Virus record (IMG/VR): IMGVR_UViG_2531839446_000024 | Location: 1-5,846 of that record | From: a virus | Lineage: Duplodnaviria > Heunggongvirae > Uroviricota > Caudoviricetes | DNA: 5,846 bases | Strand: one strand, 5' to 3' | Shown here: piece by piece, positions 1 to 3,000 of the stretch | Numbering within the stretch: the first letter of the stretch is position 1 | How the letters are laid out: each line of letters opens with the position of its first letter | Program-made: the position numbers

Positions 1-3000
1 AAAACAGAACTGCTGGAAACGCAGACCGTGGACTTCTGCGTGGGCGCAGAAGGGCCTCGCCATGTGCCGGGCGATGTCATTGAAATCTGTGATGATGACT
101 ATGCCGGTATCAGCACCGGTGGTCGTGTGCTGGCGGTGAACAGCCAGACCCGGACGCTGACGCTCGACCGTGAAATCACGCTGCCATCCTCCGGTACCAC
201 GCTGATAAGCCTGGTTGACGGAAGTGGCAATCCGGTCAGCGTGGAGGTTCAGTCCGTCACCGACGGCGTGAAGGTAAAAGTGAGCCGTGTTCCTGACGGT
301 GTTGCTGAATACAGCGTATGGGGGCTGAAGCTGCCGACGCTGCGCCAGCGCCTGTTCCGCTGCGTGAGTATCCGTGAGAATGACGACGGCACGTATGCCA
401 TCACCGCTGTGCAGCATGTGCCGGAGAAAGAGGCCATCGTGGATAACGGGGCGCACTTTGACGGCGACCAGAGCGGCACGGTGAATGGTGTCACGCCGCC
501 AGCAGTGCAGCACCTGACCGCAGAAGTCACCGCAGACAGCGGGGAATACCAGGTGCTGGCGAGATGGGACACGCCGAAGGTGGTGAAGGGGGGGAGCTTT
601 ATGCTTCGCCTGACCGTGGCAGCAGACGACGGCAGTGAGCGGCTGGTCAGCACGGCCCGGACGACGGAAACCACATACCGCTTCACGCAACTGGCCCTGG
701 GAAACTACACGCTGACAGTCCGGGCGGCAAATGCCCGGGGACAGCAGGGCGATCCGGCATCGGTATCGTTCCGGATTGCCGCACCGGCAGCACCGTCACA
801 GATTGAGCTGACGCCGGGCTATTTTCAGATAACTGCCACGCCGCATCTTGCGGTTTATGATCCGACGGTACAGTTTGAGTTCTGGTTCTCGGAAACGCGG
901 ATTACCGATATCAGGCAGGTTGAAACCACAGCCCGCTACCTTGGCACGGGGCTGTACTGGATAGCCGCCAGTATCAATATCAAACCGGGCCATGATTATT
1001 ACTTTTATGTTCGCAGTGTGAACACCGTTGGCAAATCGGCATTCGTGGAGGCCGTCGGTCGGGCGAGCGATGATGCGGAAGGTTACCTGGACTTTTTCAA
1101 AGGCCAGATAACCGAATCCCATCTCGGCAAGGAACTGCTGGAAAAAGTCGAGCTGACGGAGGATAACGCCAGCAGACTGGAGGAGTTTTCGAAAGAGTGG
1201 AAGGACGCCAACGATAAGTGGAATGCCATGTGGGCTGTCAAAATTGAGCAGACCAAAGACGGCAAACATTATGTCGCGGGTATTGGCCTCAGCATGGAGG
1301 ACACGGAGGAAGGCGAAACTGAGCCAGTTTCTGGTTGCCGCTAACCGTATCGCGTTTATTGACCCGGCAAACGGGAATGAAACGCCGATGTTTGTGGTCA
1401 GGGAGATCAGATATTTATGAACGACGTGTTCCTGAAGCGCCTGACGGCCCCGACCATTACCAGTGGTGGAAATCCACCGGCATTTTCCCTGACATCAGAC
1501 GGAAAGCTGACCGCTAAAAATGCGGATATCAGTGGCAGTGTGAATGCGAACGCCGGGACGCTCAACAATGTCACGGTAAATGAAAACTGTACGATTAAGG
1601 GCATGCTGGAGGCGACTCAGGTCAGAGGTGACTTCGTTAAAGCTGTATCCAAATCATTCCCGAAACAGGCTGGTACGTGGGGTAACACGGAAACACCAAA
1701 CGGGACGGTTACAGTCACCATCAGCGATGATCATAACTTTGACCGTCAAATCATTATTCCGCCCATTATCTTTAACGGAATAGCGTATAGCTATCCGGGA
1801 AGTGGTAATAACCCGGGAGGTACAAGATACACGGGTTATGGTTTTGAAGTTCGCAAAAACGGTGTATTAATCGCATCCAGAGAAACTAAAGGGGCCATTC
1901 CCGGTAGCTACAGTGCGGTTATTGATATGCCGAGTGGCAGGGGAAGCGTCACTCTGGAGTTTAAGGTTTTCCATAAAGGCAATCAGCGGGCAGGTAATAT
2001 CACCGACTGTACGGTGATTGTGACCAAAAAAGCCGCTTCCGGCATCAGTATTCGTTGAAATTGTTATAACCCATATAAGGGCACCAGAAATGGTGCCTTT
2101 TTTATTGCAGAAAAGCGAGAGGTAATTATGCGTAAACTTTATGCCGCCATTTTTTCCGCAGCCATCTGTCTGGCCGTATCCGGTGCGCCTGCATGGGCAT
2201 CTGAACATCAGTCCACGCTGAGCGCGGGGTATCTTCATGCCTCGACGAACGTTCCCGGCAGCGATGATCTGAACGGGATTAACGTGAAATACCGTTATGA
2301 GTTTACGGACACACTGGGGATGGTGACGTCATTCAGCTATGCAGGAGACAAGAATCGCCAGCTGACCCATTACAGCGATACCCGCTGGCATGAAGATTCC
2401 GTTCGTAACCGCTGGTTCAGCGTGATGGCGGGGCCGTCTGTGCGCGTGAATGAATGGTTCAGCGCGTATGCGATGGCGGGTGTGGCTTACAGCCGTGTGT
2501 CGACTTTCTCCGGGGATTATCTCCGCGTAACTGACAACAAGGGGAAAACGCACGACGTGCTGACCGGAAGTGATGACGGTCGCCACAGCAACACGTCTCT
2601 GGCGTGGGGGGCTGGCGTGCAGTTTAACCCGACCGAATCCGTGACCATTGACCTTGCTTATGAAGGTTCCGGTAGTGGCGACTGGCGAACGGATGCATTT
2701 ATTGTTGGTATCGGATACCGTTTCTGACAACAGACGCCGATTTATCTTCTGTAAATATTGTTATGATACGCAGGTTCATCCACCTTATGGGGTGAACTGC
2801 GTTTGAGGAAACGTAAAGTTACACTGTCCTGAAGCCCGTGGCGTCACTGCTGCGGGCTTTTTTTATTGGTGGAAAAGTATGACTGTAAAAATTTCTGGCG
2901 TGCTTAAAGATGGCACAGGAAAACCAGTACAGAACTGCACCATTGTGCTGAGGGCCAGACGAACCAGCAGCACGGTGGTGGTGAACACGGTGGCCTCAGA

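What the first reader, a model, noticed from the sequence alone, without database searches (positions are those of the whole stretch)
1312..1420. J is broken by a compensating +1/-1 indel pair 82 nt apart
The J-like peptide runs in frame 1 up to ...EDTEEG (ggc 1312-1314), in frame 2 for [27 protein letters not shown] (1316-1396), and in frame 1 again from [12 protein letters not shown] (1399 onward). This implies an extra base near 1315 and a missing base near 1397. Frame 1 hits TAA at 1342-1344, so a ribosome would stop ~240 codons short of the J C-terminus. The tail-tip protein would be cut off from its receptor-binding domain, which fits either a decaying prophage or a sequencing/assembly error. 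The short distance between the indels also fits a small patch replacement.
Basis: partly seen in the sequence, partly recalled or inferred. Interest (0 to 1): 0.6.

Follow-up and report, generated by a model that had tools for sequence, protein, structure and literature searches.

The report
Frameshift pair in prophage tail-tip gene
The phage tail-tip gene J in this draft E. coli contig really is interrupted by one extra and one missing base 83 nt apart, but the defect exists only in this single 454-era assembly, so it is either a consensus error or an ordinary recent pseudogene.

Summary
Compared with lambda J and five intact J genes, the window has an extra G at 1315. It also has a two-base remnant (G1397-T1398) where intact genes have a full codon (GCG or GGT), with changes at 1404-1405. 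These are the only indels in 2.1 kb of J. Frame 1 stops at TAA 1342-1344, leaving an orphan 213-codon receptor-binding ORF (1417-2058).

The window is the first 5,846 nt of contig ADUS01000052.1 from E. coli RN587/1 (EPEC O157:H8). This is a 454 Titanium/Celera draft, and the contig begins inside J. GenBank already lists the two pieces (EFZ72912.1, EFZ72913.1).

Neither lesion occurs in 5,426 complete E. coli genomes, IMG/VR, the metagenome contigs or the GTDB representatives. The 82 nt between the lesions and both flanks are identical to intact alleles. The rest of the contig has 0 indels in 10.3 kb against a close relative.

Two independent events are therefore unlikely, whether errors or mutations. 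A single local cause is needed. I favour a consensus or assembly artefact in this multi-copy gene (~0.5) over a real, very recent inactivation (~0.43). Reads would decide. Either way it is ordinary. Recoding and templated mutation were rejected; a patch from a diverged donor found no support.

The parts
1..1344 (+). 5' fragment of gene J as assembled. It covers lambda-numbering codons 453-890, then 9 out-of-frame codons (ETEPVSGCR) and a premature TAA. It is cut at its 5' end by the start of the contig. GenBank EFZ72912.1 (447 aa, partial).
   Evidence: ORF list. Gene call and Pfam Ig_J, Ig_J_second and Phage_Tail_Tip. Alignment to PDB 8iyk_J residues 453 onward. Accession.
1315..1315 (+). Left lesion: a single inserted G between C1314 and A1316 (+1), at the codon equivalent to lambda J K891. 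It is not a homopolymer length change.
   Evidence: Alignments A1 and A2. No 28-mer spanning it occurs in 5,426 complete E. coli genomes. Absent from IMG/VR, GTDB representatives and metagenome contigs.
1316..1396 (+). 27 J codons (K891-V917, [27 protein letters not shown]), displaced into frame 2. The nucleotides are identical to intact type-A J genes such as that of SCU-171.
   Evidence: Translation. Alignments.
1342..1344 (+). Premature TAA met by a ribosome that stays in frame 1 after the inserted G. Because it lies between the two lesions, the second lesion cannot rescue translation.
   Evidence: Translation. ORF 28..1344.
1397..1405 (+). Right lesion (-1). The two-base remnant G1397-T1398 replaces a whole codon (GCG in type A, GGT/GGG in type B). 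GGA-G (1402-1405) replaces GGC-A. T1398 and G1405 are states seen in natural in-frame alleles. A1404 and the missing base are private. The changes also create GGGAG (1401-1405), 11 nt upstream of ATG1417.
   Evidence: Alignments. Natural variants GTTGGTCAGGGCGAT (93), GTTGGTCAGGGTGAT (18) and GTTGGGCAGGGCGAT (9) among 122 IMG/VR matches. A type-A allele with N-to-D, GTGGCGCAGGGCGAC. No 28-mer spanning the lesion in complete E. coli genomes. Absent from IMG/VR, metagenome contigs and GTDB representatives.
1417..2058 (+). Orphan 3' ORF of 213 codons, equivalent to lambda J M925 to the C-terminus. It carries the receptor-binding domain (Pfam Ig_GpJ_C). GenBank EFZ72913.1. From 1500 onward it is identical to the intact J of the closest relative, L008.
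   Evidence: ORF list. Gene call. Pfam. Exact sequence found on this one contig only. Identity to L008.
1498..1791 (+). Interval containing the similarity breakpoint with the closest relatives. To its left the window carries type-A states: 7 informative sites between 1416 and 1497. To its right it is about 99.9% identical to L008 and L012, and it shares T1792 with L008 against G in all five type-A references. This is either a real recombination junction or a chimeric join through a 294-nt identical stretch.
   Evidence: Informative-site table. Mismatch lists. BLAST. The L012 contig begins at window position 1793.

Best explanation
The gene is an ordinary lambda-type tail-tip and host-specificity gene J. 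It belongs to the nleB2-carrying lambdoid prophage that sits next to potB/potA/pepT/phoQ in EPEC O157:H8 strain RN587/1.

The +1 (G1315) and -1 (1397-1398) pair is most likely not in the bacterium's DNA. I read it as a local consensus or assembly error of the 454 Titanium/Celera draft. It lies 1.3-1.4 kb from a contig end that falls inside a multi-copy gene. It is also only 100-180 nt from the point where this contig stops resembling its closest relatives.

The right lesion sits on a codon cluster where co-resident J paralogs differ at 4-6 of 15 positions. Mis-gapped alignment of mixed or ragged reads at such a site can yield a consensus that is one base short and blends the two allele types. 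Two observations fit this: the two-ended pattern (changes only at the ends of a ~90-nt stretch with a perfect interior) and the functionally meaningless compensation. Together they point to one badly spliced or trimmed read or unitig overlap rather than to biology.

Shown: the position and nature of the lesions, their privacy to this assembly, the provenance, and the clean remainder of the contig. Inferred: the technical origin.
For: 1. Provenance. The window is nt 1-5846 of ADUS01000052.1, GCA_000188875.2. This is strain RN587/1, sequenced with 454 Titanium 8-kb paired ends and assembled with Celera (PMC3715677). The contig begins inside J.
2. Privacy. The best match to 1290-1425 among 4,217 places in 5,426 complete genomes is 96.3%, which is exactly the five changes. 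No 28-mer spans either lesion. There are no exact matches in IMG/VR, the metagenome contigs or the GTDB representatives. The two protein fragments occur on one contig only.
3. Clustering. There are 0 indels in 10,266 nt against L012 and only two gaps in 2.1 kb of J. Independent events have p of about 0.005, so one local cause is needed.
4. The compensation has no function, because TAA 1342-1344 lies between the lesions. Selection therefore cannot explain the pairing.
5. The right lesion sits on a natural A/B polymorphism hotspot and mixes A and B states.
6. Repeat context. Close relatives carry a different J allele to the left of 1498. The Illumina contigs of L012 and L013 break inside J at 1793 and 1827. 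This implies a second J paralog in this lineage, the situation in which overlap assemblers mix or mis-join reads.
7. The only two amino-acid states not seen in 114 J homologues (C13, P19) lie in the first 60 nt of the contig. This suggests weak consensus at that end.
Against: - Neither lesion is a classic 454 homopolymer miscount. The left one is a G inserted between C and AAA. The right one is a G3-to-G2 contraction only if one assumes an in-frame allele (GTGGGTCAGGGAGAT) that was not found.
- Consensus quality is otherwise high. There are 0 indels in 10.3 kb.
- The private substitutions in J 1-1400 are 11 of 17 at third codon positions (p=0.008). The flank is therefore a natural allele, not an error-rich patch.
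- The paralog-mixing model explains the right lesion but not the left one, where types A and B are too different to co-align.
- Defective prophages with frameshifted tail genes are common in EPEC (general knowledge).
- No reads were examined.
Confidence: 0.5

Rival explanations
1. The lesions are real. J of this prophage, or of whichever RN587/1 prophage the first 1.5 kb of the contig truly belongs to, was inactivated very recently. The cause would be a complex local event or two slippage events. The result is a truncated hub/fibre protein of about 899 residues that lacks the receptor-binding domain. The prophage could then no longer make adsorbing particles, and its nleB2 cargo would be fixed in the chromosome. 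A short repair or conversion tract copied from an identical type-A paralog with imprecise junctions is one form of this rival, and matches the reader's 'patch' idea.
For: - The assembly is otherwise clean: 0 indels in 10.3 kb.
- The flanking J sequence looks like a natural, selected allele.
- The lesions are not typical 454 homopolymer errors.
- T1398 and G1405 are natural allele states. The right lesion can therefore be read as a natural V-G-Q-G-D allele that lost one G.
- GenBank annotators accepted the two CDS.
- Prophage decay is common in EPEC (general knowledge).
Against: - No other sequence in any collection shares either lesion.
- There are no other signs of decay. The region downstream of 1500 is identical to the intact J of L008, lom, stf and nleB2 are intact, and there are no excess private amino-acid changes.
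- Two independent real indels 83 nt apart with opposite sign are as improbable as two independent errors, and the compensation cannot have been selected.
- The interior of the putative patch shows no donor differences.
- No templating repeat longer than 8 nt was found.
Confidence: 0.43
2. The lesions are real and the gene works as a split J. The hub/fibre fragment ends at TAA1342. The 213-residue receptor-binding fragment is translated separately from ATG1417, using the Shine-Dalgarno-like GGGAG (1401-1405) that the private CA-to-AG change creates.
For: GGGAG at 1401-1405 lies 11 nt upstream of ATG1417 and is absent from intact alleles, which have GGGCA or GGGCG. The 213-codon ORF is intact and contains the whole Ig_GpJ_C domain.
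Against: - The break lies inside the Pfam Phage_Tail_Tip fibre domain, query residues 393-520. It is not at a domain boundary, and 34 codons (K891-F924) would be lost from both products.
- No other J gene in any collection is split here.
- The spacing of 11 nt is long for a Shine-Dalgarno site.
- A single private occurrence carries no evolutionary support.
Confidence: 0.02
3. Programmed recoding. Ribosomes shift +1 near 1315 and -1 near 1397 to make full-length J.
For: Only that the two shifts would restore the frame.
Against: - There is no X XXY YYZ slippery heptamer or known +1 site at either position (read directly from the sequence).
- Every orthologue examined is in frame at both sites, so the arrangement is not conserved.
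Confidence: 0.01

Closest known systems
Bacteriophage lambda gpJ (tip attachment protein / central tail fibre; PDB 8iyk, 8iyl, 8k35, 8xcg, 8xci)
   Same: The repaired window translation aligns end to end with lambda J residues 453-1131, E=0. The Pfam series is the same: Ig_J, Ig_J_second, Phage_Tail_Tip, Ig_GpJ_C. Synteny is the same, with J followed by lom and a side tail fibre gene. At the nucleotide level, lambda is identical to the window at both lesion sites apart from the lesions themselves.
   Different: The reading frame is interrupted (+1 at codon 891, -1 at codon 918). The last ~170 residues, the receptor-binding domain, are a different allele from lambda's.
Intact 'type A' 1,137-codon J genes of E. 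coli prophages and phages (SCU-171 WP_174144547.1, 55989 WP_000515371.1, phage PhiR49_1 XSB42981.1, phage Perceval CAH1234814.1)
   Same: They are 96-96.6% identical and colinear over window 1-2100. They are identical to the window across 1240-1460 except at the lesions. They have the same C-terminal domain.
   Different: They have no inserted G. They read GTGGCGCAGGGCAAT where the window reads GTGGTCAGGGAGAT.
The same nleB2 prophage at the same chromosomal site in close relatives (L008 = GCA_013056845.1, also L007, L009 and L010; intact 1,165-codon J)
   Same: L008 has 4 mismatches and 0 indels against the contig from position 1500 to 8058. It has the same lom, stf, nleB2 and chromosomal flank.
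   Different: To the left of ~1498 their J is a different ('type B') allele: 92% identity over 1-1142 and about 75% over 1227-1400. Their J is uninterrupted.
Frameshifted prophage pseudogenes, and consensus indel errors in 454-era draft genomes
   Same: A single-base frame disruption of a prophage structural gene, annotated as two adjacent partial CDS.
   Different: There are two opposite-sign lesions 83 nt apart with clustered substitutions at one of them. Neither is in a long homopolymer.

Membership tests
Lambda gpJ tail-tip / host-specificity protein | Domain series Ig_J, Ig_J_second, Phage_Tail_Tip and C-terminal receptor-binding Ig_GpJ_C | tested here: met
   Pfam scan of the repaired translation: PF24421 (residues 158-262), PF24489 (264-366), PF09327 (393-520) and PF12421 (549-684), all far above the curated cut-offs.
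Lambda gpJ tail-tip / host-specificity protein | Sequence homology and colinearity with experimentally solved lambda J | tested here: met
   phmmer against PDB: 8iyk_J, 1,222 bits, query 1-684 aligned to chain 453-1131.
Lambda gpJ tail-tip / host-specificity protein | Lambdoid tail-module synteny (I - J - lom - stf) | tested here: met
   In the window J is followed by lom (2128-2727) and a tail fibre gene (2879-4192). Intact relatives show tail assembly protein I upstream. The upstream part is not in the window because the contig starts inside J.
Lambda gpJ tail-tip / host-specificity protein | One uninterrupted ORF of about 1,130-1,165 codons | tested here: not met
   The gene is split into 1..1344 and 1417..2058 by the +1/-1 pair.
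Genuine frameshift pseudogene of a decaying prophage | The lesion is present in the organism's DNA and reproducible in independent sequence data | not testable with these tools
   No reads and no second assembly of RN587/1 could be reached. The fragments occur on one contig only. No other genome shares the lesions.
Genuine frameshift pseudogene of a decaying prophage | Further signs of relaxed selection or decay in the gene and its neighbours | tested here: not met
   There are no other indels in 2.1 kb of J. Private substitutions are biased to third codon positions. Only 2 private residues were found. lom, stf and nleB2 are intact and identical to relatives.
454/Celera consensus or assembly artefact | Indel-prone platform and draft-level assembly | tested here: met
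   454 Titanium 8-kb paired ends, Celera assembler (PMC3715677).
454/Celera consensus or assembly artefact | Homopolymer-length context of the indels | tested here: inconclusive
   The left lesion is a G between C and AAA, so it is not a run-length change. The right lesion is a G3-to-G2 change only relative to a hypothetical allele that was not found.
454/Celera consensus or assembly artefact | Location in or next to repeated sequence, a contig end or a possible mis-join | tested here: met
   The contig starts inside J. J has a median of 2 and up to 12 copies per E. coli genome. The similarity breakpoint with the closest relatives lies at 1498-1791. Relatives' contigs break inside J.
454/Celera consensus or assembly artefact | Reads contradict the consensus | not testable with these tools
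   There is no access to read data.
Programmed ribosomal frameshifting (for example lambda G/GT) | Slippery site, and conservation of the shifted arrangement among orthologues | tested here: not met
   No slippery heptamer occurs at 1309-1320 or 1390-1400. All orthologues are in frame.

The most novel reading that the evidence does not exclude
The lesions are real and define a naturally split J. A hub/fibre fragment ends at TAA1342, and an independently translated 213-residue receptor-binding module starts at ATG1417. It would be served by a Shine-Dalgarno-like GGGAG that the same private substitutions create. This would make the receptor-binding domain a separable cassette.
Probability: 0.02. 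Interest if true: 0.45.

Novelty: already known. Interest (0 to 1): 0.08.

Why it matters
It matters little biologically. If the lesions are real, one nleB2-carrying prophage of one EPEC strain cannot build an adsorbing tail tip. That is the usual fate of effector-carrying lambdoid prophages. If they are an artefact, this is a small annotation error (EFZ72912.1/EFZ72913.1 should be one J protein).

It is also a reminder that compensating indel pairs in 454-era drafts, particularly inside multi-copy phage genes near contig ends, should not be read as biology without reads. A useful by-product is that the first ~1.5 kb of this contig may not belong to the nleB2 prophage at all.

Tried and rejected
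1. Patch replacement from a diverged donor. The 82-nt interior and both flanks are identical to intact type-A alleles, so no donor signature exists. A donor identical in the interior cannot be excluded.

2. Templated (quasi-palindrome or direct-repeat) mutation. No repeat longer than 8 nt spans either lesion anywhere in the window, which is the chance level. The 8-bp inverted match GTCAGGGA/TCCCTGAC (1397-1404 / 1486-1493) does not explain G1405.

3. Programmed recoding. There is no slippery site and no conservation.

4. Search for a natural in-frame parent allele of the right lesion. GTGGGTCAGGGAGAT is absent from complete E. coli genomes. Related natural forms exist, but none has GGA.

5. 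Natural K-to-E allele (GGCGAACTG) that would turn the left lesion into an AA-to-AAA miscount. It was not found in IMG/VR. All 126 type-A J sequences collected have K at this position, and type B has M.

6. Independent assemblies carrying the lesions. Exact-protein look-ups, complete E. coli genomes, IMG/VR, metagenome contigs and GTDB representatives all gave nothing.

7. A nearly identical intact allele of window 1-1310. The best DNA match is 96.6% and the best protein match is 97%. The ~34.2-kb contigs carrying partial J proteins P0106-P0118 turned out to be a different prophage.

8. 454 paired-end linker remnants. None were found.

9. Simple mixing of type-A and type-B reads as the sole cause. 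It fits the right lesion qualitatively. It fits neither A1404 nor the left lesion.
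Full report
**Observation**

Frame 1 carries J-like peptide up to ...SMEDTEEG (GGC 1312-1314), then reads ETEPVSGCR and stops at TAA 1342-1344. Frame 2 carries [27 protein letters not shown] (1316-1396). Frame 1 carries [15 protein letters not shown]... from 1399. The mechanical ORFs are 28..1344, 1223..1420 and 1417..2058.

I aligned 1240-1470 to phage lambda J and to five intact J genes: phages PhiR49_1 and Perceval, and prophages of strains SCU-171, Z1323HEC0475 and 55989. 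The alignment places the lesions as follows.
- Left lesion: a single inserted G at 1315 (GGC-AAA becomes GGCGAAA).
- Right lesion: GTG GCG CAG GGC AAT becomes GTG G-T CAG GGA GAT. The codon at 1397-1398 has lost one base, and positions 1398, 1404 and 1405 differ.

Over window 1-2100 the gene is colinear with these 1,137-codon J genes at about 96% identity. These are the only two gaps.

**What the gene is**

The repaired translation aligns end to end with solved lambda J (PDB 8iyk_J, residues 453-1131). It has the Pfam series Ig_J, Ig_J_second, Phage_Tail_Tip and Ig_GpJ_C. In lambda numbering:
- the inserted G hits codon K891;
- the right lesion hits codon A918;
- ATG1417 is M925.

Both lesions lie inside the Phage_Tail_Tip fibre domain (query residues 393-520). 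The receptor-binding domain (549-684) lies wholly in the downstream 213-codon ORF. As written, the product would be a hub/fibre protein truncated after residue 890 plus nine wrong residues. It would be cut off from the domain that, by established knowledge of lambda J, determines host range. Because the TAA lies between the two lesions, the second lesion cannot rescue translation. The 'compensation' therefore has no functional meaning.

**Provenance**

An exact-protein look-up of the 213-codon ORF finds one contig only: ADUS01000052.1 (34,172 nt) of assembly GCA_000188875.2. The window is its first 5,846 nt. This is E. coli RN587/1, an O157:H8 typical EPEC. It was sequenced with 454 Titanium 8-kb paired-end libraries and assembled with the Celera assembler (PMC3715677).

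The contig begins inside J. GenBank already lists the two pieces as EFZ72912.1 (447 aa, partial) and EFZ72913.1 (213 aa), both named 'host specificity protein J domain protein'.

Downstream of J lie lom, a collagen-repeat tail fibre gene, a small fibre C-terminal protein, the type III effector gene nleB2, and then chromosomal genes matching Pfam ABC-transporter, peptidase, JmjC and PhoQ-sensor families, which I read as potB/potA, pepT, roxA and phoQ.

**Are the lesions seen anywhere else?**

No.
- Among 4,217 J places in 5,426 complete E. coli genomes, the best match to 1290-1425 is 96.3%. That is exactly the five changed positions.
- Queries built so that every 28-mer seed spans a lesion find nothing.
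- Exact-pattern scans of IMG/VR, the metagenome contigs and the GTDB species representatives find neither lesion.

**How the surroundings behave**

The 82 nt between the lesions, and the flanks 1240-1314 and 1406-1460, are identical to intact type-A alleles such as that of SCU-171. There is no visible donor ancestry for a 'patch'.

The rest of the contig is clean. It shows 0 indels and 21 mismatches in 10,266 nt against the Illumina assembly L012. It shows 4 mismatches in 6.5 kb against L008 from position 1500 on.

The substitutions in J 1-1400 that are private relative to five references are 11 of 17 at third codon positions (p=0.008). In addition, an Arg CGC-to-AGA synonymous pair is present. 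The flank is therefore a natural, selected allele and not an error-rich stretch. Only two residues of the repaired protein are unseen in 114 homologues (C13, P19). Both fall within the first 60 nt of the contig.

**The right lesion sits on a natural polymorphic hotspot**

In IMG/VR the homologous 15 nt occur in several in-frame forms:
- GTT GGT CAG GGC GAT (93 of 122);
- GTT GGT CAG GGT GAT (18);
- GTT GGG CAG GGC GAT (9);
- GTC or GTG GGG CAG GGC GAT (1 each).

These are 'type B' (V-G-Q-G-D), against 'type A' GTG GCG CAG GGC AAT (V-A-Q-G-N). A type-A allele with N-to-D also exists (GTGGCGCAGGGCGAC). Thus T1398 and G1405 are natural allele states. Only A1404 (a synonymous GGA) and the missing base are private.

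The most economical reading is a V-G-Q-G-D allele that lacks one G (GTG GGT becomes GTGGT). That parent allele was not found in complete genomes.

**A second anomaly nearby**

The closest relatives carrying the same prophage at the same site (L007-L010) have an intact 1,165-codon J. To the left of ~1498 their J is a different allele: 92% identity over 1-1142 and about 75% over 1227-1400.

Informative sites show the window is type A at 1416, 1437, 1452, 1464, 1494, 1495 and 1497. At 1792, however, it shares T with L008, where all five type-A references have G. The breakpoint therefore lies in a 294-nt stretch (1498-1791) that is identical in both allele types.

This is either a genuine recombination junction, which is commonplace in J, or a chimeric join made by the assembler through a repeat about as long as a 454 read. 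The Illumina contigs of L012 and L013 break inside J at 1793 and 1827. This implies another J paralog in this lineage. In E. coli generally, J is present at a median of 2 and up to 12 copies per genome.

**Weighing the explanations**

With 0 indels in 10.3 kb, the 95% upper bound of the indel rate is 1 per 3.4 kb. Two independent opposite-sign indels within 91 nt of this J segment then have a probability of about 0.5%. This applies equally to errors and to mutations, so one local cause is required.

The technical candidate is a mis-gapped or mis-spliced consensus, where reads or unitigs of J paralogs meet near a contig end. It naturally gives changes at the two ends of a short stretch with a perfect interior. 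It gives a blend of A and B states at the hotspot. It also explains why the lesions are private to one assembly. It does not explain A1404 or the left lesion, and neither lesion is a textbook homopolymer miscount.

The biological candidate is a recent complex mutation, or a short repair tract with imprecise junctions. It fits the otherwise high consensus quality and the frequency of defective prophages in EPEC. It has no positive support. No other isolate shares it, there is no further decay, no templating repeat longer than 8 nt exists, and no selection for the pairing is possible.

I put the artefact at about 0.5 and a real recent pseudogene at about 0.43. Exotic readings together get about 0.03:
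- Split J with restart at ATG1417. A GGGAG created at 1401-1405, 11 nt upstream, is a curiosity.
- Programmed recoding. There is no slippery site and no conservation.

**Comparison with the known, and verdict**

The gene is a member of the lambda gpJ family on every criterion except an uninterrupted ORF. The interruption itself belongs to a well-known class, either a draft-assembly consensus error or a prophage pseudogene. It is already represented in GenBank as two partial CDS.

Interest is low. Read pile-ups or a PCR/Sanger amplicon from RN587/1 would settle the matter. They would also show which J left half is truly linked to the nleB2 prophage.

Noticed in passing
window 1 (= ADUS01000052.1 position 1): The window starts exactly at a contig end that falls inside J (lambda-numbering codon 453), so the 5' 1,356 nt of J and the rest of the prophage are missing. 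The only two residues of the repaired J not seen in 114 homologues (C13 at nt 37-39, P19 at nt 55-57) lie in the first 60 nt. They may be contig-end errors.
   Followed up: partly
window 1498-1791 and 1792: There is a similarity breakpoint with the closest relatives. To the left the contig carries a type-A J allele, whereas L007-L010 carry type B. To the right it is about 99.9% identical to L008 and L012. T1792 is shared with L008 against G in all five type-A references, and the L012 contig begins exactly at 1793. This is either a real J mosaic or a chimeric 454 join through a 294-nt identical stretch.
   Followed up: partly
window 4639-5619 (+): An intact nleB2 gene (type III secretion effector, arginine glycosyltransferase; Pfam SseK_NleB, 326 aa) sits as AT-rich cargo at the right end of the prophage. 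The exact protein is listed in 56 blocks of the public collection. The prophage abuts genes I read as potB/potA, pepT, roxA and phoQ.
   Followed up: partly
window 2879-4192 (+), especially 3620-3960: This tail fibre gene (437 aa) has an Ala/Ser/Glu-rich segment followed by collagen-like G-X-Y repeats. It has no Pfam hit on record. The long minus-strand ORFs over it (3102-3962, 3569-4354) are probably by-products of the repeat composition. It is followed by an 89-aa Phage_fiber_C protein (4194-4463).
   Followed up: no
window 588-594: A G7 run (AAGGGGGGGAGC) occurs where most J genes have GGGGGTGAG, giving KGGSF instead of KGVSF. Only 5 of 129 collected J proteins share the G. In a 454 assembly a long homopolymer next to a rare substitution is worth checking in the reads.
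   Followed up: partly
window 1398-1401 and 1417-1420: Two coincidences at the right lesion. The changed bases spell TCAG, the 454 read key (from memory; natural type-B alleles also read GGTCAGGG). The frame-2 ORF ends in TGA overlapping ATG1417 (ATGA), with a newly created GGGAG 11 nt upstream.
   Followed up: no
window 3523; contig 7822, 8018, 8036 (L006/L144): At these four single-base positions RN587/1 differs from relatives L008 and L012 (and L015), which agree with each other. 3523 does not change the stf protein.
   Followed up: no
window 2077-2100 and 2831-2860 (+): Strong terminator-like hairpins followed by T-runs lie directly after J and after lom. Similar stem-loops were read by eye after the fibre genes (about 4479-4503) and after nleB2 (about 5621-5645), but the terminator scan did not list those two.
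   Followed up: no
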